Positions 697-37,527 of a stretch of DNA of 37,527 nucleotides are shown one piece after another. The notes under the pieces were generated by a model, which worked only from the letters and a program-made list of their open reading frames with translations, was not told where the DNA came from and ran no database searches. The stretch spans positions 1 through 37,527 of the forward strand of contig NW_021835826.1 of the NCBI RefSeq assembly GCF_006345805.1, read 5' to 3'. This DNA comes from Octopus sinensis. Taxonomy: Eukaryota. Position numbers and translations under genes: made by a program. The stretch's first letter is position 1; the number at the start of each line of letters is the position of its first letter.

Positions 697-1230
697 AGTT
701 TCAAATTTTGGCACAAGGCCAGCAATTTTGGGAGAGGGTTAAATCGATCATATCGATCCCAACGCTCAACTTGTACTTATTTTATCGAACCCAAAAGAAT
801 GAAAGTTTCAAATTTTGGCACAAGGCCGGCAATTTTAGGAGAGGGGTAAATTGATCACATCGACCCCAACGCACAACTGGTACTTATTTTATCGAACCCG
901 AAAGAATGAAAGTTTCAAATTTTGGCACAAGGCCGGCAATTTTAGGAGAGGGCTAAATTGATCACATCGACCCCAACGCACAACTGGTACTTATTTTATC
1001 GAACCCGAAAGAATGAAAGTTTCAAATTTTGGCACAAGGCCGGCAACTTTAGGAGAGGGGTAAATTGATCATATCGACCCCAACGCTCAACTGGTACTTA
1101 TTTTATCGACCCCGAAAGAATGAAAAATGAAGTGGACATCGGCGGAATTTGGACTCAACGTAAAAACGGAACAAATGGCGCTTAACAATTGGTCCGGCGT
1201 GCTAACGATTCTGCCAGCACGACGTCTTAA
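697..1230 (-). mobile_element. tRNA-derived SINE (family A head/core, variant tail) whose 3' 107 bp is tandemly repeated 4 times
   Basis: Units start at 697, 804, 911 and 1018 (agtttcaaattttggcacaaggcc...). The last unit runs into the reverse complement of the family A head (ggcggaattt...ctgccagc). Confidence 0.85.
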
Positions 1231-4947: not shown

Positions 4948-5108
4948 CCGGAGTAAACACTTTAAATGTGAAACAAGGTGGAAAAAAGAGTACTCAAATA
5001 CAAGTGGTAGAGTAATATGCTTTATTTAAAGCAGCAGAAATTCAACAAAACCTGTTACTCTGAGTTTCACGTTGCCGTTCGTCGAACGGCAACGTGAAAC
5101 TCAGAGTA
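4948..5108 (-). mobile_element. Penelope-like pLTR 3' end with hammerhead motif, 5'-truncated by a perfect 26-bp fold-back
   Basis: Minus strand reads (t)cgacga-ACG gcaa CGT-GAAA-CTC a GAG-T-A-acagg (HHR stems II and III). Palindrome arms 5056-5081 and 5083-5108. Tail ends in (TA)n at ~4947. Confidence 0.75.
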
Positions 5109-6039: not shown

Positions 6040-6905
6040 TCCTTGAGCAAGAAACTTTATTTCATGCTGCTCTAGTTCATTCGGTCATCAAGAATCAGTT
6101 ATACCTCTAATTCAAAGGGCCAACAATTTCACATTTTGTGTCATAAGGCGGCGAGCTGGCAGAAACGTTAGAACGCCGGGCGAAATGCTTAGCGGTATTT
6201 CGTCTGCCGTTACGTTCTGAGTTCAAATTCCGCCGAGGTCGACTTTACCTTTCATCCTTTCGGGGTCGATAAATTAAGTGCCAGTTACGCACTGGCGTCG
6301 ATATAATCGACTTAATCCCTTTGTCTGTTCTTGTTTGTCCTCTCTGTGTTTAGCCCCTTGTGGGTAGTAAAGAAATAGAAATAGGTATTTCGTCTGCCGT
6401 TGCATTCTGAGTTCAAATTCCGCCGTGGTCAACTTTGCCTTCCATCCTTTCGGGGTCGATAAATTAAGTACCAGCTACGTACTGGGGTCGATGTAATCGA
6501 CTTAATCCGTGTGTCTGTCCTTGTTTGTCCTCTCTGTGTTTAGCCCCTAGTGGATAGTAAAGAAATAGGTATTTCGTCTGCCGTTACGGTCTGAGTTCAA
6601 ATTCCGCCGATATCGACTTTGCCTTTCATCCTTTCGGGATCGTTAAATTAAGTACCAGTTACGCACTGGGGTCGATATAATCGACTTAATCCCTTTCTCT
6701 GTCCCTGACCTTGTTTGTTCCCTCTATGTTTAGCCCCTTGTGGGCAATAAAGAAATAAAATTTTGTGTCACGCTGAATCTCCCTGAGAACTACACTAAGG
6801 GTACACGTGTCTGTGGACTACTCAACCATTTGTACATTAATTGAAGATCCGGGTGTTTCGTTGATCCGACCAACTGGAACTCTCATCGTCGTAACCCATG
6901 GCGTA
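6040..6905 (+). mobile_element. Old chimeric SINE (family D-like core plus family B1 tail) interrupted at 6144-6759
   Basis: ccttgagcaagaaactttatttcatgctgctctagttca matches the D core. ttcaaagggcc...tgtgtca|cgctgaatctccc...tcgtcgtaacc matches the B1 tail seen intact at 32310-32480. Confidence 0.7.
6144..6759 (+). mobile_element. Head-to-tail trimer of SINE family A flanked by a single 11-bp TSD
   Basis: Full monomer 6144-~6384, then two monomers starting at gtatttcgtctgcc (6385 and 6569). TSD attttgtgtca at 6133-6143 and 6760-6770. Confidence 0.92.
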
Positions 6906-8513: not shown

Positions 8514-9123
8514 TAAAACATTATGGTGAATTGAAGAATGGAGCTGAACGCAGATTGAACAGAAATCGTTTATTTTCCATTCTAACGTGTTTCGAAAGGC
8601 ACAAATTACCAAAATCCGATTGAATAATGGGACCATATTGTGTCTTTTCTCTTCAGGGAAGAAAAAGAAATCCGTTGGAAAAAACAAAACAAAACAGAGG
8701 CAGAGCAAAAACAATCGAACTGTGCTCCTAAGAGCCCATGGCGAATCGCGTGGGCTCTTAGGGTAGCACAGACGATTGTTTGTTTGCGTCTGCGCTGTTC
8801 TGTTTTTGTTTTTCCAACGGATTTCCTTTTTTCTTCCTGAGAGAAAGACACAATATGGTCCCATTTTCAATCGGATTTTGGTAATTGGTGCCTTTCGAAA
8901 CACGTGTAGAATGAAATAAAACGATTTTCTGTTCAATCTGCGTTCAGCTCCATTTCTTCAATTCACCAATAATGTTTTAATTTCAATTATCCCACCAACG
9001 CACGGTTGCAACGCCAGATGGTTGTAACCTCCAACCGTGCTGTTTACTGCTGTGATTTTTGCTACTAAGGTATCGGTTAAACTTTTGATTAATCTACTAC
9101 AGATTATTCAGCTTTCTATTCAC

Positions 9124-9124
<1 letters not shown>
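8514..9124 (+). mobile_element. Penelope-like pLTR cassette: ~225-bp-arm palindrome (8514-8979, centre ~8745) plus unique tail ending in (TA)n
   Basis: Arms are reverse complements with several indels. Each arm carries an HHR motif, and both outer ends abut (TA)n. Confidence 0.75.
8830..8916 (+). ncRNA. Type I hammerhead ribozyme motif with long stem II and palindromic stem III (one core base missing in this copy)
   Basis: tttcttc-CTGA-GA-GAAAGACACAAT...ATTGGTGCCTTTC-GAAA-CACGTG-T-A-gaa(t)gaaa. The mirror copy (minus, 8656-8581) has intact CTGAAGA but lacks one stem III G. Predicted cleavage after GUA at 8908. Confidence 0.7.
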
Positions 9125-9180
<56 letters not shown>

Positions 9181-16016: not shown

Positions 16017-16366
16017 TAGTAATTCGGAATTTTTCACTCATAAACAGATTTATACCTTCACTAGTTAGAGGAGTAATTTCGTTATGTTGTTTGGTGAACT
16101 TAATCCGTCGCCTGGACCTATAGTGCATTTAGTCGAATTAACTCGGTTGTGACTATTCGGTTCGAGTCTACATTCTTAAGATAATATCCAGTTTCTCTCA
16201 CTTTTCTCGAAGACCCTGAATACAAAAAAAATCGATAAATAAGGTGAGTGTCGACCGGAATCATACTTTTCCTTTCTAAGCCATAAAATCCCCTTTTGGT
16301 CATTTTTAGCAGACAAAGGCAACGACAAGACCACCGAAAATAACAACAATATCAATATCAATTATA

Positions 16367-16779
16367 GGCGCAGGAGTGGCTGTGTGGTAAGTAGCTTGCT
16401 CACCAACCACATGGTTCCGGGTTCATTTCCACTGCGTGGCACATAGGGCAAGTGTCTTCATCTATAGCCTCGGGCCGACCAAAGCCTTGTGAGTGGATTT
16501 GGTAGACGGAAACTGAAAGAAGCCCGTCGTATATATATGTGTATGTGTGTGTATATGTTTGTGTGTTTGTGTTTGTCCCCCCAAAATCGCTTGACAACCG
16601 ATGCTGGTGTGTTTACGTCCCCGTAACTTAGCGGTTCGGCGAAAGAGACCGATAGAATAGAATAAGTACTAGGCTTACAAAGAATAAGTCCCGGGGTCGA
16701 TTTGTTCGACTAAAGGCGGTGCTCCAGCATGGCTGCAGTCAAATGACTGAAACAAGTAAAAGAGTAAAAGAGTAAAGAG
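16367..16779 (+). mobile_element. SINE family C, full length (internal microsatellite, AAAAGAGT tail)
   Basis: Head ggcgcaggagtggctgtgtggtaag...gggttca and tail gactgaaacaagtaaaagagt. Confidence 0.93.
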
Positions 16780-16809
16780 AAACAACAACAGACGCAAAGT
16801 AGATAAATA

Positions 16810-17225
16810 CTCTTTACTCTTTTACTCTTTTACTTGTTTCAGTCATTTGACTGCGGCAATGCTGGAGCACCGCCTTTAGTCCAGCAAATCGACCCCGGGA
16901 CTTATTCTTTGTAAGCCCAGTACATATTCTATCAGTCTCTTTTGCCGAACCGCTATGTGACGGGGACGTAAACACACCAGCATCGGTTGTCAAGCAATGC
17001 TAGGGGGACAAACACAGACACACAAACACACACACACATACATATATATATATACATATATACGACAGGCTTCTTTCAGTTTCCGTCTACCAAATCCACT
17101 CACAAGGCATTGGTCGGCCCGGGGCTATAGCAGAAGACACTTGCCCAAGATGCCACGCAGTGGGACTGAACCCAGAACCATGTGGCTGGTTAGCAAGCTA
17201 CTTACCACACAGACACTCCTGCGCC
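16810..17225 (-). mobile_element. SINE family C, full length, tail-to-tail with the previous copy
   Basis: Reverse complement of the same consensus with a 30-bp spacer. Confidence 0.93.
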
Positions 17226-17709
17226 TACTGTGGAAGCTGGAAAGAGAAAACACGTTTGCTTTCAATGTATTGTTGTGCCAAAACAGAGTTGGGAAGATCT
17301 AAGTTTTAAGAAGGAAGATTAAACTGTAATCTTCCAGAAACACAATATTGTGTAAAAGAAACGATAAGAGAGTTGCTGAAATATAAAAATGATTGAAGGT
17401 CAAAGTTATAAGCGAGTTTGCAAATTACAACAAAAGCTTTCACCAGTAAAATAAGCATTACTAAGCACAGCGTACACACGTACACTCCACATACACAGAC
17501 ACATACGCATATACATATTATGTATTACGTAATTTTCAATGCAATAGTACTTCAGTTCACGACACGGATATTACGGACAGTGAATTGTATGAAATAGAAA
17601 ACAAAAACTGAACCAGATCAATGTCGTACCCGTGGTACACAAATCTATTAATATATATATATATAGTCTTGCTGTGAAATAGAACAATTGAATATAGAGC
17701 TACAAAAGA

Positions 17710-19268: not shown

Positions 19269-20116
19269 CATATACAATCACACATGCACGGGCTCCCTAT
19301 ACACATGCACATAGATATGTAGGTGTGGTTGTATTTACGCATATATGAATAAAATTCCATCATTAGGTAAGACAAGCTGACTGAATCAGCTTCGCTGACT
19401 GACAGGTGACGGTCGTTTAGAAAAAGCGCGTGCTAAAACTACGCGCCTTCACTAGTCAGGTAAGGTGAGACAGTGTCACGTGACAACTTGCTGGAGCTGC
19501 CTGCCGGAGCCTATGCGGCAGGTATTTAAAGGGAGAAATTTGACAAGACAGTCAGTCACCGGCTGACACTCGCTGACGATACATCGAAGAGGCGAGGGAA
19601 CAGAAGTAAAAAGACCTGCACCCAACACCAGAGCTGAAGACACCTCCGAAAGGGGAGGCCCCGCCACGTCAAAACGGTAGAGGAGTAGGGGCCGAAACCG
19701 GACGTGGTTCCTCCTGATGATGTCTTGAGCTAACTGGATCCTATAAAGGAGCTGTTGTGGTAGCAGACCACGAGACACGGTTGTAATTCCTCCATTCATA
19801 TACAACCACACACGCACGCGCTCCCCATACACATGCACATAGATATGTAAGTCTGGTTGTATTTACGCATATATGAATAAAATTCCATGGTAGTCTACAT
19901 CAGCGATTCCCATCCGTTTTTGCTGCAGGAATCGGTTTTTATGCGAGACAATTTTGCCATAGAGCAGTGAATCACGCGAATAACAAAACGCAATAAAGTG
20001 CAAACAGCTAAATTAGACCTGTTTATAAAGGTATTATATAGGGTAAATGTAATTTAATTATTACAAATATAATGCAAATGTAACTATTGATCGTATTGGG
20101 CGTACTTTATTTCAAC

Positions 20117-20179
<63 letters not shown>

Positions 20180-20937
20180 GGCGCAGGAGTGGCTATGTGG
20201 TAAGTAGCTTGCTTACAAACCACATGGTCATGGGTTCAGCCCCACTACGTGGCATCTTGGGGAAGTGTCTTCTACTATAGCCAGGTCTAATTTAGCTGTT
20301 TGCACTTTATTGCGTTTTGTTATTCGCGTGATTCACTGCTCTATGGCAAAATTGTCTCACATAAAAACCGATTCCTGCAGCAAAAACGGATGGGAATCGC
20401 TGATGTAGACTACCATGGAATTTTATTCATATATGCGTAAATACAACCACACCTACATATCTATGTGCATGTGTATGGGGAGCGCGTGCGTGTGTGGTTG
20501 TATATGTATGGAGGAATTACAACCGTGTTTCGTGGTCTGCTACCACAACAGCTCATTTATAGGATCCAGTTAGCTCAAGACATCATTAGGAGGAACCACG
20601 TCCGGTTTCGGACCCTACTCCTCCTACCGTTTTGACGTAGCGGGGCCCCCTTTTCGGAGGTGTCTTCAGCTCTGGCGTTGGGTGCATGTCTTCTTCTGTT
20701 GCCTCGCCTCTTCGATGTATCGTCAGCGAGTGTCAGCCGGTGACTGACTGTCTTGTCAAATTTCTTCCTTTAAATACCTGTCGCATAGGCTCCGGCAGGC
20801 AGCCCCAGCAAGTTGTCACGTGACACTGACTCACCTTAACTGACTAGTGAAGGCGCGTAGTTTTAGCCCGCGCTTTTTCTAAACGACCGTCACCTGTCAG
20901 TCTACGAAGCTGATTCAGTCAGCTTGTCTCACTTAAT
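19269..20937. mobile_element. LTR/pLTR-like repeat present as ~660-bp inverted pair (19362-20021 and 20282-20937) with 92-bp direct repeat (19269-19360, 19797-19888)
   Basis: Arms align end to end with scattered substitutions. TATA-like tatttaaag at 19523; the spacer contains (TA)n and a SINE head. Confidence 0.85.
20180..20282 (+). mobile_element. SINE family C 5' fragment fused to the inverted arm
   Basis: ggcgcaggagtggctatgtggtaag...ctactatagcc then caggtctaatt (start of the inverted arm). Confidence 0.85.
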
Positions 20938-22285: not shown

Positions 22286-22315
<30 letters not shown>

Positions 22316-22320
<5 letters not shown>

Positions 22321-22467
22321 TATTAGAGAGTTACCACTATGTGGATATGTGGTAACTCTCTAATAATTTATGTATAAATTTGTATTTTCTCCCTAGTTTC
22401 TTGTGCTAAGACACCCGGTGTTAAATTAATGGTATTGTTAAATTAATATCAATTTTTCACCCTCACT

Positions 22468-22472
<5 letters not shown>
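22316..22472 (+). mobile_element. Short fold-back cassette: perfect 22-bp arms plus tail between (TA)n tracts
   Basis: taaattattagagagttaccac (22316-22337) and gtggtaactctctaataattta (22349-22370), 11-nt loop. Confidence 0.6.
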
Positions 22473-25089: not shown

Positions 25090-25249
25090 TGCTATATTAT
25101 TTCAGATTAAGGCGGTGAGCCTTCATCTGAAATAATATAGCTTCAAATATAAATTAAGTAGCAGTTGCGTACTGGGGTCGATCTAACCGAGTGGACCCCT
25201 CCCCCAAAATTTCGGGCCTAGAGTAGAAAAGTATATTATTTCAGAGTTG

Positions 25250-28814: not shown

Positions 28815-29561
28815 AGGAGTGGCTGTGTGGTAAGTAGCTTGCTTACCAACCACATGGTTCCGAGTTCAGTCCCACTGCGTGGCACCTTCGGCAAGTGTCT
28901 TCTACTATAGCCTCGGGCCGACCAAAGCCTTGTCAGTGAATTTGGTTGAAGGAAACAGAAAGAAACCTGTGGTATATATGTATATATATATATATATACT
29001 TTATAATTAGGGTTCAGCAAAGATTTGCTTTACCACATACCGAAGTTTAGAAATAGCAGTCAAAAAACCTTAGCTATTTCTTCTACTTTTTAAAGACCTT
29101 AGCTATTTCTTCTACTTTTTAAAGATCTTAGCTATTTCTTCTACTTTAAAAAGTAGAAGATACAGCTAAGGTTTTTTGACTGCTATTTCTAAACTTCGGT
29201 ATGTGGTAAAGCAAATCTTTGCTGAACCCTAATTATAAAGTATTACTTAAGTTTACCGTGAAATGGTCTTTTTTCATGCCGAATTCTACTTGGTGAAATT
29301 ATTAATTAATTAATTTTACCCTTTGTTACTGTATATATATATATATATGTATGTGTGTGTATATGTTTGTGTGTCTGTGTTTGTCCCCCCAACATCGCTT
29401 GACAACCGTGTGTTTACGTCCCGTAACTTAGCGGTTCGGCAAAAAGGACCGATAGAATAAGTACTAGACTTCCAAAGAATAAGTCCAGTTGTCGATTTGC
29501 TCGAGTAAAGGCGGTGCTCCAGCATGGCCACAGTCAAATGACTGAAACTAGTAAAAGAGTA
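28815..29561 (+). mobile_element. SINE family C split in its internal (TA)n by the 28997-29328 element
   Basis: 5' part 28815-28975; 3' part resumes at ~29330 with gtgtgtctgtgtttgtcccccc...gactgaaactagtaaaagagt. Confidence 0.88.
28997..29328 (+). mobile_element. Unclassified hairpin-plus-tail element, copy 1
   Basis: Palindrome 28997-29242 (outer 79 bp of the arms identical) with a 29-bp unit repeated ~2.7 times at the centre. Unique tail 29243-29328 is homologous to 36787-36888. Confidence 0.8.
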
Positions 29562-30338
29562 CCACACTACTCTAAAGGCTCCGAAAATTCGCAGTCTTAG
29601 AGACATTGGGATAACAGACAATCCAGTACTTGGCTTGTATTGTACTTCATCGATCACGGATAGATGAAAGTCAAAGTTGACTTCGGCAGTATTTGAACAG
29701 CGAATCTGAAGAAACAGAACGAGATGTTGGAAGGTGTCTTTCTACCCCCGCCGTTCTAACAACTTTGCCAAACAAGAAGCGCCTCAGCGCAGTTCATTAA
29801 ACATTCCGAATAAACAGGATTTAGCGTAAAAGTCACTCAATTTAGCGAGATTCGCCCGAAGAAGATTGATCTCCCTTGTCGTTAAACAATAATTAGAAAA
29901 TGCTACAAACCGAAGAAACCCATTGGGACATGTAATCATCTAAATGATTTCACGAACCCCACTGGGACATGTAACCGCCTCGGCAATTTCACTTAATACA
30001 GTAATATCATGTCGGCCGAAGTGTTGCAACGTTTTAATGTAATCTTAGTTCTATAGAAACGGTAAACCACTAAAGACAACAGATGACCGAAAACTGAGAT
30101 AATTGATATAAGAAATAAATTTATTGAAGATGTATTCTAGTAATGGTTCTTTTCAAATTTCTGCCATTCTTTACAATAAATACTACAAGAATATTGAAGC
30201 TTTCGTGAACGGCTTATTTTGTGAAGGCATCATAAATCGCATTTAATAGCTTTGTTTCAAATACATTGTTTTTAGGTGATTAATGCTTTATTTGCGCTGT
30301 ATTGTATAACCGTATAAGTATATAACCTTGTACGTACA

Positions 30339-30344
<6 letters not shown>

Positions 30345-30395
<51 letters not shown>
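30345..30395. repeat. (CA)n microsatellite
   Basis: Directly visible. Confidence 0.95.
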
Positions 30396-30398
<3 letters not shown>

Positions 30399-30723
30399 TA
30401 AGGCCTGTTGTTATTCATTTACAACTTAGAATCCTTCAGGGGAAGATAAAATAACTACCAGCCGTCTGGATTTAGTAGTCTGTTTCTTTTACCTCCGACG
30501 TATGATCTTGTGTGTGTATGTGCTCATAGTACACACACGCACACACACACACACATAAATATATATATGTATACGTATACATCTATATATATAAATATAT
30601 ATATATATTTGTGCGTATGTATTCTTGTATATACACACATATATATAAGTTAGTGGTACGTGTGCGTACACACACACACACATATACACGTGCATACAAA
30701 TATAGACAGACAGACAAACAGAC

Positions 30724-30793
<70 letters not shown>

Positions 30794-31042
30794 AGGGATA
30801 ATGTAATCCAGTCTTCAATAATATCTGTAAATACCATATCTTACTTAAATATGTTGAAAATAGTAATAAAATGAGGTTAAAAGTATACAGCCTTGTTTAC
30901 TTTAGCCTAAATATTTATGTTTATATGTTCTAATAGAGGTGGCATTCAATAATCTTGAAAACAAAAATTTCTGGTTACAGTATATGGGTATAGTGAACAG
31001 TGGAGATAATTACTATATGTGACATATATATAGCACGATGTT

Positions 31043-31377
31043 GTGAAGGCGCATGGCTCAGTGGTTAGAGTGTCGAGCTCACGATCTTGAGGTTGTGAGT
31101 TCGATTCCCGGACCGGGCAGCGTGTTGTGTTTTTGAGCAAGACATTTTATTTCACGTTGCTCCAGTTCACTCAGCTGTAGAAATGAGTTGCAACGTCACT
31201 GGTGCCAAGCTGTATCGGCCCCTTTGCTTTTCCTTGGATAACATCAGTGGTGTGGAGAAGGGAGGCTGGTATGCATGGGTGACTGCTGGTCTTCCATAAA
31301 CAACCTTTCCCGGACTTGTGGCTCGGAGGGCAACTTTCTGGGTGCAATCCCATGGTCATTCATGACCGAGGGGTCTC
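31043..31377 (+). mobile_element. SINE family D, full length, with imperfect TSD
   Basis: A-box tggctcagtgg and B-box gttcgattcc. TSD-like agcacgat(g/a)tt at 31032 and 31384. Confidence 0.93.
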
Positions 31378-31937
31378 CCACACAGCACGATATTTTAAAA
31401 TATAGACAAACCCAAACACTCACATTATATGTGTGCCCGTGCGTGTGTGTTCGTGTGTATGTTTGTATTGTTGGAGACAGTGAGCTAATGTACAGTACAT
31501 ACACTTGATCACTATAAGCCAATCATTTGTGCAGGTCGTTTAGCTGTATGAGCTGAACACTCACGCGTCATCGACGTTGTCTGAATAGGTGCAAGGTGCA
31601 CCACTCGTCAGGTATCGAAGTGATTACAGAGCAAAGTGAGATCAAATATTTTGCTCAAGAACACAATGCACCACCCGGTCTGCGAACTGAAACCGCAATC
31701 TCGCGATCGTGAGTGCAACGCCCAAGCCATTAAGTCAAGCGCCCGATGGTCACGTGTGAGCAATGAGAGAGAGAGAAAAAAAGAAAAAAGAGGAGAGAGA
31801 GAGAGAGACAGATATAAACGGTGAAAGACGGAGGGAAAGAAAGAGCGAATTAGAGAAGGATGTAGGAAGAGAACAGCATAGGATAGAGTCACATCAAAAA
31901 GGTGATGATAAACTTGGAAATGGATTCGTGGCGTTCA

Positions 31938-31975
<38 letters not shown>

Positions 31976-32107
31976 ATTCGTAGGTTATTAGTATGTGCAT
32001 GTGTATCTATAATGTGTCCATTTATGCATATACTTGTATATTTTACGGATTAGACATTTTAGCAAAAGAACAACACTTTCGCTAATTCCTACGTAGATTC
32101 TGTTTTA

Positions 32108-32494
32108 GTGGAGGCGCAATGGCCCAGTGGTTAGGGCAGCGGACTCGCGGTCATACGATCGCGGTTTCGATTCCCAGACCGGGCGTTGTGAGTGTTTATT
32201 GAGCGAAAACACCTAAAAGCTCCACGAGGCTCCGGCAGGGGATGGTGGTGAACCCTGCTGTACTCTTTCACCACAACTTTCTCTCACTCTTACTTCCTGT
32301 TTCTGTTGTACCTGTATTTCAAAGGGCCGGCCTTGTCACTCTCTGTGTCACGCTGAATATCCCCAAGAACTACAATAAGGGTGCACGTGTCTGTGGAGTG
32401 CTCAGCCACTTACACGTTAATTTCACGAGCAGGCTGTTCCGTTGATTCGGATCAACCGGAATCCTCGTCGTCGTAACCGACGGAGTGCTTCCAC
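32108..32494 (+). mobile_element. SINE family B (tail B1), full length, TSD agattctgttt
   Basis: TSD at 32095-32105 and 32499-32509; A-box tggcccagtgg and B-box gtttcgattcc. Confidence 0.93.
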
Positions 32495-33217
32495 ACCCAG
32501 ATTCTGTTTCAGATGGGCTACGTATGAATAAGCGAAATCTGAGAGACTTTGCTAAAACTTTAAATCTCCAGTTGTATTGAACGCTGAAAGCACTTAAAGC
32601 GGATTAAATCCGCACAAAATTTTATTACTGTTGATTGCAAAGAGCAGTTTCACACCAGGTCTTTGAGAGCACCCCTTCTTATGCTGCGAGGAGCGATGAT
32701 ACGCCGAGCGACACTTTTTACAAAAGTCAAAATTTCAAATTTGATAATATCCTCACATATTTCATCATTTAATTTAATAATTTTCTCATATTTCATAATT
32801 TAATTTAATAATTTTCTCACATAATTAATAATTTTCTCACATATTTCATCAGATATTTCCTGTAGAGCAGGAATCCAAAGAGTTTAGTGGTAAATATGAA
32901 AAGCGTACCTACAGGAGATGTTGAAAAAAAGTTTTTCAGAAGTAGAAAATCACAATTCTTAATACTGGTGAATAATTAACACGATTATTGGAATGACATG
33001 AATTTTAATTCCGCAGTCTAACGGTTAACTTGTTCAAAGATTACTTTGCTTTTCTACACTCTTTCATCTTTCCTTCAATTACTTATGTATACACACATAC
33101 ACGCTGCCGGCGCACGCACACACAACACACATACACACACACATAAACACGCATAGACCGACAGACACATTTGTGTGTTTATATAGATATATATACGACA
33201 CCTGTTGTTATGTCCTG

Positions 33218-33505
33218 TTATTTGTAGTTGTATTTGTGTAACATTTCTCTGTTTTTTCCGTCCTTGCTTTCTTTCAAGGAATGAAATGCTCTTAGCTTAT
33301 TTTTTCCTTGGGGCTTGCCAGACTGGAGCAATCTCGAGTATAACAAGCCGAAATTGCAAAGATAATCTGGAACTCGACTGAGGATAGAAAACTCTGAATG
33401 ACCCGTCCTTGTTTTCCTCGTATCGTCTGTCTGGATATTTTGTTGTCCCTTTTTTGTTTCACCTAACTGTGTGGATGTATTGTGTTCTTGTCCCATTTTT
33501 GTATT
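33218..33505 (+). mobile_element. PLE-like 3' end ending in (TA)n
   Basis: Pyrimidine-rich tail homologous to 9181-9280. No intact HHR core found. Confidence 0.55.
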
Positions 33506-33545
33506 ATATATATATATATATGTATATGTATAAATATATATTATA

Positions 33546-33787
33546 TGCTACACATCGCTGGTCACAATGCGCTTCACATTGTTTTAACCTTCAAATGACG
33601 CCACCCCACTGGCTAAGCGAGCAGGCAGACAGAAGTAAGAGTGAGAGAAAGCTGTGGCGAAAGAGTACCTCCTGTCGGTGCCTCGTGGAGTTTTAGGTGA
33701 TTTCGCTCAATAAACACTCACAACGCCCGGTCTGAGTATCGAAACCGCGAGTCCTCTGCCCTGACCACTGGGCCATTGCGCCTCCAC
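33546..33787 (-). mobile_element. SINE family B with tail B2
   Basis: Reverse complement of the 22006-type element. Confidence 0.88.
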
Positions 33788-34226
33788 ATACACACCACAT
33801 ATATATATATATATAATATATATATATATATATTATATATATATATATATATATATGTATATGAGATAGAAACACATAAACCCCTACGAACCAGCAATAC
33901 ATATCAGGTTTCGTCAATGACGAGATGGCGGTTTAAGCTTTTAGCTTGTTATACCACGTATTTACTGGACAAAATTACTATCGATCTGCGATAAATGATT
34001 GGTTTGAACTTTATGGAGTTCTGTGATGGATAATGCTATTTCAGGCTAAAATATTCTTCTTTATTTCATGCCATTACTCCATATTGAATATGTGTTTGTT
34101 TTGCTTTGTGGGAGTTGTTCATTATATACCATAATTATATCTTCTAGTTTGTCAATGAATCTATAAATTATTATGACGTGTAATTACGTGCATGCGCACT
34201 GACATAAACACGCAAGCATATGTAAA

Positions 34227-34263
<37 letters not shown>

Positions 34264-34295
34264 CAGGCAAATACATTTACATGTATATATATATA

Positions 34296-34331
<36 letters not shown>

Positions 34332-34434
34332 TATATATAGATATATATATGTATACACACACAATTAGACCAATAAACACACACACACACAAATACACAC
34401 ATATATATAATCCGTATCGCTTAAACCAGATATG

Positions 34435-34483
<49 letters not shown>

Positions 34484-34552
34484 GTGGTGGATACGTGCGT
34501 GTGTGTATATATACACATATATATGTATATGTATATGTATAAATATATGTAT

Positions 34553-34587
<35 letters not shown>

Positions 34588-34603
34588 ACACACATATATA
34601 TAT

Positions 34604-34646
<43 letters not shown>

Positions 34647-34783
34647 AAATAAGCAATGTTGCTTATTTTGATTTTAATCACCTTATTTTGAAATTGTATG
34701 GATAAATACCGTACTAAATTCTGGTGCCTCGACTTAAGTACCATATTCATCTGTATCTAACTCTTGTTATATATATATGCGCA

Positions 34784-34837
<54 letters not shown>

Positions 34838-34898
34838 TATATATATATACATATATATATATATACATATATATATATACAATTATAGCAATATATAT

Positions 34899-35102
34899 AA
34901 CAATATATGCGCATGCGTGGAATTATATGGTAATAAAGACTCACAGTAAAAATCACGTGCATACATACAGACACACTCGCGCACGCGCATATATATGTAT
35001 GTATATATATATATCAGATTTTTGTCTGTATGTATGCACGTGAATCTTTTTTACTGTGAGTCTTTTATTGCCATATAATTCCACGCATGCGCATATATTG
35101 TT
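34899..35102. repeat. Fold-back inverted repeat, ~75-80-bp arms, 49-bp spacer
   Basis: 34899-34973 pairs with 35023-35102; differences are one substitution plus homopolymer-length changes. Confidence 0.85.
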
Positions 35103-35512
35103 AAACCGTTATAATTTGATATTTTCTGAAACGCTTAACCACGTGTAAACTAATTTAAATTTCTCCAACCAATCATCACTAATCAATACATAGACTCATT
35201 TCTGTTCATTCTTATTTTATTTTTGTCCTACTTTTATTTATTTATTTATTTATTTACTTTATTTTTATCTTTATCTTATTGATTTGATGTTTTATAACTT
35301 TTATTTTTATTGTTATTGTATTTACTTTGTATATTACTTATTCTACCTTATTACGTATTTTACATTCTTTTTCATTATATTCAAATTAGACCGTTATCCC
35401 TCAAACACACACACACAAAATAAAAATGTAATAACTCCATATACTTAGTCAGCCAGTATGAACTAAGATGTCCGCCTGTAATCTTTTAATATATATCTTT
35501 TTCCGTGATGAT

Positions 35513-36287
35513 ATAGTGTTTATACCCTACAAATGCAAATTTAAACCATAATTTGTAATTTATTTAATAAACACAATTGAAACAGCTGTAGGAAGTATGA
35601 AGAATCATCATAATAAATAATTATTAACTTTCAATTCACCATATTCTTTCCTGCTATTAAGCGAATGTGCATTTATATCATAACATATACCTAATGATTT
35701 AGGGGAATTTTATAGTGTTTATACCCTACAAATGCAAATTTAAACCATACATTTGTAATTTATTTAATAAACACAATTGAAACAGTTGTAGGAAGTATGA
35801 CGAATCATCATAATAAATAATTATTAACTTTCAACTCTGCATATTCTTTCCTGCTATTAAGCGATTGTGCATTATATCATAACATATACCTACTGATTTA
35901 GGGGGATTTTATAGTGTTTATACCCTACAAATGCAAATTTAAACCATAAATTTGTAATTTATGTAATAAACACAATTGAAACAGCTGTGAATTATGACGT
36001 ATCATCATAATAAATAATTATTAACTTTCAACTCACCATATTCTCCTATATTAAGCGCTTGTGCATTTTATCATAACATATACCTACTGATTTGGGGAAT
36101 TTTATAGTGTTTATACCCTACAATGCAATTTAAACCACAAAATTGTAATTTATTAATAAACCAATTGAAACAGCTGTAGAAATGACGAATATCATAATAA
36201 ATAATTATTAACGTTCAACTCACCATTTCTTCCTGCTATTAAGCGAAGTGCATTATATCATAACATATACCTATGATTTAGGGGAAT
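35513..36287 (+). repeat. Tandem repeat, 4 units of ~199 bp
   Basis: Units start at 35513, 35712, 35911 and 36104 (atagtgtttataccctacaa...); lengths 199, 199, 193 and ~184. Confidence 0.93.
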
Positions 36288-36658
36288 GTTATTTCCCAAA
36301 AATATATTTGGTAAAGAACCAATGATATTTGGATGTAATCATCCCTTTATGGGCTTAATATAACCTCTTTTTAACTATTATAAATTTAACTATTATATAT
36401 TGGAGTGATGTTTCTCTGTCCGTTAGTGTTTTTTGTTCGTTAATTCTTCTTAGGCCGTTGGTGCAAGGACAACGAAACTTAAACCAGCAACTCCCCTATT
36501 CCCAAGGAATGCCCTAAGCGTGTCTATTGTTTTGAAAGGCCGTATAATTGGGGCCTCCACCGTCCCCTATTTTTACTGCATTTTAAACTAAATACATGGC
36601 ATTGGCGACCAAATCGGAGCAATAGCAATGAATTTCATAATGAACACCCAAGGAGTAT

Positions 36659-36700
<42 letters not shown>

Positions 36701-36786
36701 ATATTATATATATATATATAGATATATATATATATATAGATATATATATTATATATATATATAATATATATTATATATATATATAA

Positions 36787-37083
36787 TAACAAATGGGTAA
36801 AATTATTAATTAAGAAAGAAGTAATCATAAATTTCACCAAGTAGAATTCGGGTGTGAAAACAGGACCGTTACAGGTAAATTTTAGTAATACTAATAAAAC
36901 GGGTTCAGCAAAGAATTGCCTCACCACACATCGAAGTTCAGAAATAGCAGCCAAAAATCTAGCAATTTCTTCTACTTGAAAGGACCCTTTTTAAAGTAGA
37001 CGAAATGGCTAAGATTTTTGGCTGCTATTTCTGAACTTCGGTGTGTGGTGAGGCAATTCTTTGCTGAACCCTTATTATTAGTA
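36787..37083 (-). mobile_element. Unclassified hairpin-plus-tail element, copy 2
   Basis: Tail 36787-36888 and palindrome 36889-37083; homologous to 28997-29328 in opposite orientation; flanked by (TA)n on both sides. Confidence 0.8.
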
Positions 37084-37321
37084 TATATATATATATTATA
37101 TATATTATATATATATATATATATATAATATGTGTGTTATATGTATATTATATGTTAGATTTATTTTATTATATATATAATGCTGTGTGTGTGTGGGTAT
37201 GGTCAGATTTTCTCCTGTCGGAGACAGCTGCGGTTCAGTAGAATAAGCTTTTATCTGTCTATGGACACGAAGGTGTCTCGAGTCTTGCTGGTACCTTAAG
37301 CCTCTATATATATTATATATA

Positions 37322-37355
<34 letters not shown>

Positions 37356-37527
37356 CATGTAGTATGTATGTATGTATATGTATATACACACGCACACATA
37401 TACATATATAGGAGAAAGATGTGTATACATCTATATATTAGGGTACCACTTTCTGTACGGCCCGATTACAAAATGACTCCAAAACTTATTACTGGTTTCC
37501 GGACCCGAGGTTAGAGACCCCGTACTG

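What the first reader, a model, noticed from the sequence alone, without database searches (positions are those of the whole stretch)
28997..37083. Unclassified hairpin-plus-tail element in two copies with mirrored arm evolution
Copies at 28997-29328 (+) and 36787-37083 (-) share a ~90-100-bp-arm palindrome folding at the same point, a one-sided ~90-100-bp tail and (TA)n on both flanks. Within a ~55-bp stretch the copies differ at seven positions (e.g. agaTttgcTtTacc versus agaAttgcCtCacc), and every difference is present in both arms of its copy (seen). It is not a simple MITE because of the asymmetric tail, and it has no HHR core or ORF. Either one arm is regenerated from the other at each mobilisation (hairpin-primed replication), or the arms are homogenised by conversion (inference). 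This is the best candidate for an undescribed element type in the window.
Basis: partly seen in the sequence, partly recalled or inferred. Interest (0 to 1): 0.75.

Follow-up and report, generated by a model that had tools for sequence, protein, structure and literature searches.

The report
Penelope-type retrozyme stubs, inserted head-to-head
The two hairpins are short stubs of a common non-coding jumping element whose longer copies carry a hammerhead-ribozyme motif, and the way its two mirrored arms end at two different fixed points suggests each stub is likely built from two DNA copies made at once by a Penelope-type enzyme, a known kind of element whose insertion mechanism is still unsettled.

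Summary
The two hairpin-plus-tail copies are real, but they are not a new element class. They are short members of two subfamilies (A, B) of a dispersed, non-coding 555-597-bp unit. Longer copies carry a type I hammerhead motif, form head-to-tail partial tandems and end in (TA)n. This is the anatomy of Penelope-like elements (PLEs) and animal retrozymes.

The fold point varies; two outer 3' ends about 96 nt apart are fixed. In 76 motif-sampled insertions, 42 of 49 two-armed ones pair one end of each kind, none has two alike, and arm lengths are uncorrelated. Variants shared by both arms are inherited subfamily variants (54 of 59); conversion is not supported.

Best reading: both nicked target strands likely prime reverse transcription at two RNA sites, and the two cDNAs are joined. 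5' ends pile up at the predicted ribozyme cut. No autonomous driver was found, and cleavage and expression are untested. The scan already reached similar readings on other DNA of this genome.

The parts
28996..29095 (-). Copy A: inverted, tail-less arm, ending outward at the internal 3' site (S2, unit position 499)
   Evidence: 98% to subfamily A unit 400-499
29063..29147 (+). Copy A: 29-bp tandem, 2.9 copies, at the junction of the arms
29144..29243 (+). Copy A: direct arm (unit about 400-499)
29205..29228 (+). Predicted RNA hairpin just 5' of site S2 (base GGU...ACC)
   Evidence: same hairpin predicted in subfamilies A-D; function inferred
29244..29328 (+). Copy A: tail between the two fixed 3' ends, ending at site S1 (unit position 595)
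29292..29321 (+). Predicted RNA hairpin just 5' of site S1 (base GGUGAAAU...AUUUYACC)
   Evidence: function inferred
28815..28995 (+). Host SINE, 5' half, ending in the (TA)n target
   Evidence: 87% to the SINE at 16365-16810; tRNA-SINE label recalled
29332..29561 (+). (TA)n and host SINE, 3' half
   Evidence: 88% to the SINE at 16365-16810
36787..36887 (-). Copy B: tail, ending at site S1
36888..36981 (-). Copy B: direct arm (subfamily B unit 388-482)
   Evidence: 91% over arm plus tail
36983..37084 (+). Copy B: inverted, tail-less arm ending outward at site S2
   Evidence: 96% to subfamily B unit 381-482
36659..36786 (.). (TA)n flank of copy B
37085..37179 (.). (TA)n flank of copy B

Best explanation
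The two copies are 5'-truncated, head-to-head insertions of a non-coding 555-597-bp repeat unit with a hammerhead motif, likely a non-autonomous Penelope-like element (animal retrozyme) that is likely copied twice at each insertion, once from each nicked strand of a (TA)n target. Shown: the unit, its partial tandems, the hammerhead motif, two fixed 3' ends about 96 nt apart, (TA)n at those ends, variable 5' ends, and pairing of one S1 end with one S2 end. Inferred: the unit is transcribed as a more-than-unit or circular RNA; a PLE protein (RT plus GIY-YIG nuclease), probably a dimer, binds two similar hairpins in the RNA's 3' region and nicks both strands of (TA)n; one 3'-OH primes at S1 and the other at S2; both cDNAs stop independently, typically after 100-200 nt, and their ends are joined. 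The tail is the stretch between the two start sites, and the arms share their variants because both come from the same source element. Some templates were likely cut by the ribozyme, which leaves 5' ends at the cut site.
For: Unit and tandems: (44 head-to-tail junction rows, duplicates of one locus included), pairwise 72-79% between subfamilies A-D. Fixed ends: of 125 outer ends, 44 at 499 and 51 at 595 exactly; 97 of 110 such ends followed by (TA)3 within 30 nt versus 256 of 2000 random 30-mers. Pairing: 76 insertions; 49 two-armed = 42 S1+S2, 7 irregular, 0 S1+S1, 0 S2+S2; 27 one-armed = 14 S2, 11 S1, 2 other. Arm lengths: S2 arm longer in 15, S1 arm longer in 12, within 20 nt in 15; Spearman 0.12, p 0.46. 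Shared variants: 54 of 59 occur in at least 3 other copies. Hammerhead: core, palindromic stem III and stem I with compensatory changes between subfamilies, and a U3-A8 core in subfamily D. 5' ends at -1..+2 of the predicted cut: 10 versus 1.65 expected. Intact RT+GIY-YIG ORFs of 775-781 aa are present in the genome. Literature: two RT start sites define the PLE tail and both strands are cut and extended in vitro (PMC11167929).
Against: No autonomous element sharing the unit's sequence was found (58 GIY-YIG loci; 292 other loci). Rfam reported no hammerhead family in 7 loci, and minimum-energy folds of four hammerhead regions were not significant (z -0.9 to -2.0); the motif rests on my own descriptor and covariation. 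The tail (about 96 nt) is longer than the 30-40 bp described for PLEs. In vitro no strand difference in start site was seen and uncleaved RNA was the dominant template (PMC11167929). Many segments read through the cut site (33 of 179 A, 27 of 66 B, 22 of 47 D). The -1..+2 window was chosen after seeing the data, and ends are BLAST ends. 7 of 49 two-armed insertions do not fit the two-site classes cleanly.
Confidence: 0.75

Rival explanations
1. Same element, but the inverted arm is made by self-priming or fold-back on the first cDNA or on an antisense template.
For: Both arms share source variants; 25 of 49 junction rows overlap by 1-12 nt, as short microhomology would give; 15 of 42 have arms within 20 nt of each other.
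Against: Fold-back on the cDNA cannot make the tail-less arm longer than the tailed arm, yet it is longer in 15 of 42, by up to about 400 nt; L006 has a tail-less arm of more than one unit opposite a 200-nt tailed arm; 14 of 76 insertions are a tail-less arm alone.
Confidence: 0.12
2. The unit is only the terminal repeat (pLTR) of an autonomous PLE that I did not find, and the copies are its truncated ends rather than a self-standing non-autonomous family.
For: Truncated PLE ends with hammerheads are common in animal genomes (PMC4209133); searches return only top-scoring candidates (40 scored of about 2000).
Against: Wherever a copy extends past the unit's start it continues into the unit's own tail; no sense-contiguous PLE ORF in 292 loci.
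Confidence: 0.08
3. Arms are homogenised by gene conversion after insertion.
For: Within-copy mismatch is lower than between copies.
Against: Only 3 private variants are in both arms versus 40 in one arm; 112 one-arm variants in all; the window's eight mirrored differences are common subfamily alleles.
Confidence: 0.03
4. A MITE or Helentron-type DNA element with a shared flank, or a sequencing fold-back artefact.
For: Inverted arms and TA flanks in the two window copies.
Against: Arm length 30-426 nt, no unique interior, one-armed and tandem copies, hammerhead motif. Arms differ by 3.5%, and opposite-strand joints are present in contigs of 3 of 4 independent runs.
Confidence: 0.02

Closest known systems
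Insertion units of endonuclease-positive Penelope-like elements (pLTR + inverted 5'-truncated copy + tail; PMC8557442, PMC3846280; read: passages)
   Same: Head-to-head inverted 5'-truncated copy, one-sided tail, partial tandems, heavy 5' truncation, microsatellite/(TA)n bias, hammerhead in the repeat.
   Different: No ORF; tail about 96 nt instead of 30-40 bp; no target-site duplication can be read inside (TA)n; driver unknown.
Metazoan non-LTR retrozymes (PMC7229834, read: passages; bioRxiv 10.64898/2026.07.22.740005, read: first fifth and passages)
   Same: Non-coding, AT-rich, tandem units with one type I hammerhead each; PLEs proposed as origin and driver.
   Different: Unit 555-597 bp versus about 150-450 bp; copies are mostly sub-unit stubs with PLE-type inverted arms and tails, which the passages I read do not describe; circular RNA not shown here.
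Poseidon element of Anolis, PAc (PMC11167929; read: first two of four text parts)
   Same: Two internal RT start sites bracketing the tail; AT-rich target; both strands cut and extended; predicted dimer.
   Different: PAc is autonomous with the sites inside the ORF; no strand preference and no ends at the ribozyme cut were seen there, whereas here ends pair S1 with S2 and 5' ends pile up at the predicted cut.
L1 twin priming (recalled, not read)
   Same: A second target 3'-OH primes internally on the RNA and gives an inverted 5' segment.
   Different: In L1 the second site is variable and the two cDNAs cover different parts; here it is fixed and both cover the same part.

Membership tests
Penelope-like elements (autonomous) | ORF with telomerase-like RT and GIY-YIG endonuclease | tested here: not met
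   Unit closes on itself in tandem; no sense-contiguous PLE ORF in 292 loci
PLE-mobilised non-autonomous element | Partial tandem (pseudo-LTR) arrangement | tested here: met
   44 head-to-tail junction rows in subfamilies A-D
PLE-mobilised non-autonomous element | Adjacent inverted 5'-truncated copy, head to head | tested here: met
   49 of 76 sampled insertions
PLE-mobilised non-autonomous element | Tail at one end, between two fixed 3' ends | tested here: met
   Ends at 499 and 595; about 96 nt, longer than the 30-40 bp in PMC8557442
PLE-mobilised non-autonomous element | AT-rich or microsatellite target | tested here: met
   97 of 110 ends versus 256 of 2000 background
PLE-mobilised non-autonomous element | An autonomous PLE sharing its 3' end | tested here: inconclusive
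   None in 58 GIY-YIG loci of 5029 candidates
Non-LTR retrozymes | Type I hammerhead motif in each unit | tested here: met
   Descriptor and covariation; Rfam gave no hammerhead hit
Non-LTR retrozymes | Non-coding tandem units with at least two consecutive hammerheads | tested here: met
   Two motifs in consecutive units in L168, L180, L182; most copies are sub-unit stubs
Non-LTR retrozymes | Unit length about 150-450 bp | tested here: not met
   555-597 bp; a described range rather than a strict rule
Non-LTR retrozymes | Self-cleavage and circular RNA | not testable with these tools
   Only indirect: 5'-end pile-up at the predicted cut
MITE | Fixed-length terminal inverted repeats at both termini, homogeneous size | tested here: not met
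   Arms 30-426 nt, 27 of 76 one-armed

The most novel reading that the evidence does not exclude
Penelope-type integration is an obligately asymmetric double priming: a protein dimer reads two look-alike hairpins on one retrozyme RNA, starts one cDNA at each from the two nicked target strands, and joins them head to head; the hammerhead really cuts these templates in the germ line. This family would be direct genomic evidence that animal retrozymes are PLE-mobilised, with a spacing between start sites three times the textbook tail.
Probability: 0.5. Interest if true: 0.65.

Novelty: new variant of a known kind. Interest (0 to 1): 0.42.

Why it matters
How PLEs make their inverted repeats and tails is named as open in PMC8557442, and PMC3846280 proposed self-priming. 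This family gives countable predictions: one end of each kind per insertion, independent arm lengths, and 5' ends at the ribozyme cut. These can be tested in the existing in vitro PLE assay. It also ties animal retrozymes to PLEs by their integration signature rather than by co-occurrence, and warns that such stubs can be mis-filed as MITEs or unknown repeats. The class itself is known.

Tried and rejected
Rfam scan of 7 loci at E up to 5: only spurious miRNA/snoRNA hits, no hammerhead. Search for the driver: GIY-YIG search, 58 loci scanned for the unit and for hammerheads, tblastn of six PLE protein pieces against 292 other loci: several PLE families, none joined to the unit. Searches with subfamilies C, D, E and an unrelated look-alike family F led to non-coding tandems or stubs only. 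Expression: no RNA holder listed on record; contigs of four runs were laid but cannot show strand, ends or level. The descriptor caught mostly subfamilies A, B and E (46 motifs), so stems of C and D are cited. No Dfam or Repbase search was available. Literature searches found no paper describing this family or a twin-priming model for PLEs; one search returned one unrelated review. Supplements were not opened; the element lists of PMC8557442 and the repeat library of PMC13282606 may already contain this family. Rejected: MITE, Helentron, conversion, artefact, fixed fold point.
Full report
Observation. Both copies are present as described. Copy A has arms at 28996-29095 and 29144-29243, a 29-bp tandem between them and a tail to 29328. 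It sits in the TA tract of a SINE whose halves flank it. Copy B has arms at 36888-36981 and 36983-37084 and a tail at 36787-36887. Eight positions differ between A and B in both arms, but B's arms also differ from each other at five positions and A's at two. The genome is a 2.72-Gb animal assembly; that it looks like an octopus rests on my recall of its SINEs and size and on labels in earlier notes.

It is a dispersed family. The B copy drew 2688 first-look candidates, of which 40 were scored, and one exact 29-mer of subfamily A occurs 292 times against 0 for the reversed control. Longer copies define a non-coding unit of 555-597 bp in subfamilies A-D, 72-79% alike where they align, with a fifth, E, seen in part. 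Copies that run past the unit's start continue into the unit's own tail (44 junction rows, duplicates included). The window's mirrored differences are common subfamily alleles: seven of eight A letters are the majority among 128 A arms (the eighth is in 50 of 127), and all eight B letters are the majority among 43 B arms. Contigs of four runs, from four coded organisms, hold the family, and three show opposite-strand joints, so the hairpins are not an assembly artefact.

Anatomy in a length-independent sample. I took the first 100 of the 292 pattern matches. They fall in 78 loci; I dropped two duplicate loci, counted one flank-inclusive duplication once, and removed neighbouring fragments in three loci, leaving 76 insertions. 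Outer 3' ends concentrate at unit positions 499 (S2) and 595 (S1); inner ends vary. Of 49 two-armed insertions 42 have one S1 and one S2 end, 7 are irregular, and none has two S1 or two S2 ends. Independent choice of site at even odds would make half of them symmetric. Of 27 one-armed insertions 14 end at S2, 11 at S1, 2 elsewhere. The tail-less arm is longer by more than 20 nt in 15 of 42, shorter in 12, similar in 15, with no correlation (rho 0.12, p 0.46). (TA)3 follows 97 of 110 fixed ends versus 256 of 2000 background 30-mers. The two window copies fold at a similar point because inner ends are commonest about 100-150 nt from S2.

Arm evolution. Arms of one copy differ at 3.5% of sites, arms of different copies at 5.8% (lower within in 34 of 35 copies). 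Of 59 variants present in both arms, 54 occur in three or more other copies and 3 are private; 112 variants are in one arm only, 40 of them private. The arms therefore start identical from one source and then diverge independently. Conversion is not needed.

Hammerhead. About 90 nt 5' of where the window stubs begin, the unit carries a type I hammerhead motif with a long stem II and a short palindromic stem III. Stem I changes in compensating fashion between subfamilies, with 34-45 of 46 motifs paired per position (C and D). Subfamily D has a U3-A8 core, a variant reported for PLE hammerheads (PMC4209133, first two of four text parts read). Against this, Rfam found no hammerhead and four isolated folds were not significant. 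5' ends fall at -1..+2 of the predicted cut 10 times versus 1.65 expected (A 5 versus 0.7, B 1 versus 0.17, D 4 versus 0.78); the window was chosen after seeing the data and B and D were sampled by similarity. Many segments read through the site, so uncut, multimeric or circular templates are also used (inference).

Start signals. Each fixed end lies about 10-15 nt 3' of a predicted hairpin with the same base, in all four subfamilies (three of four 3' regions fold better than shuffles, z -3.0 to -6.4, one does not, z -1.5). That they position the enzyme is inferred.

Mechanism. A PLE protein likely nicks both strands of (TA)n, primes one cDNA at S1 and one at S2, and the two truncated cDNAs are joined, often over 1-12 nt of overlap (25 of 49 junction rows). 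This fits the in vitro finding that a PLE cuts and extends both strands, starts at two internal sites that bracket the tail, and is predicted to be a dimer (PMC11167929, first two of four parts read). That study saw no strand difference in start site and no ends at the ribozyme cut. Self-priming, proposed in PMC3846280 (passages read), does not easily give tail-less arms longer than their partner or standing alone. Intact RT plus GIY-YIG ORFs exist in the genome, but none of 58 loci shares the unit, so the driver is open.

Comparison. The structure is that described for PLE insertions, with an inverted 5'-truncated copy and a 30-40-bp tail (PMC8557442, passages read). The non-coding tandem unit with a type I hammerhead matches animal non-LTR retrozymes (PMC7229834, passages; bioRxiv 10.64898/2026.07.22.740005, first fifth and passages), for which PLEs are the proposed drivers. 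It differs in a tail of about 96 nt, a longer unit and a prevalence of head-to-head stubs. An octopus repeat annotation lists active Penelope families without mention of hammerheads (PMC13282606, passages). Five literature searches found no description of this family; supplements and repeat databases were not seen. Earlier notes of this scan reached similar readings for other pieces of this genome; they are unchecked and not counted as support.

Verdict. A real feature and a variant of a known kind: a non-autonomous PLE-type retrozyme family whose stubs inform an open mechanistic question. Interest 0.42.

Noticed in passing
window 8514-9127: A 466-bp palindrome with a one-sided tail between (TA)n tracts; each arm has a hammerhead-like motif, one with a shortened core. 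A different family with the same architecture.
   Followed up: partly
window 22301-22470, 34898-35103, 5056-5108, 25091-25141: Further short palindromes, some next to (TA)n with a one-sided extension; 22301-22470 ends in a hairpin resembling the S1 hairpin.
   Followed up: no
window 16365-17227 and 19362-20937: A head-to-head pair of SINE copies (87% between arms) and a 660-bp inverted duplication (95%).
   Followed up: no
L291-L320 (family F; e.g. L308, L311): A very young (99-100% identical) 533-bp hammerhead unit with no BLAST similarity to A-D, in arrays of more than four units, with multi-unit arms on both sides and the same two-end pattern by eye. Best material for testing a circular template.
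   Followed up: partly
L123:1174-4877, L126:3242-6318: Young PLE families with intact 775-781-aa RT+GIY-YIG ORFs preceded by an overlapping upstream ORF; they end at (TA)n, and the L123 family appears to have two 3' ends about 35 nt apart and a U3-A8 hammerhead-like motif.
   Followed up: partly
L270 (G000:C2308) versus window 35475-37527: 2 kb including copy B is present on a second small contig at 96.7% identity, probably a haplotype or duplicate of the same locus.
   Followed up: partly
window 697-1125, 6194-6761, 35512-36292: Tandem arrays of 107-, 190- and 199-bp units.
   Followed up: no
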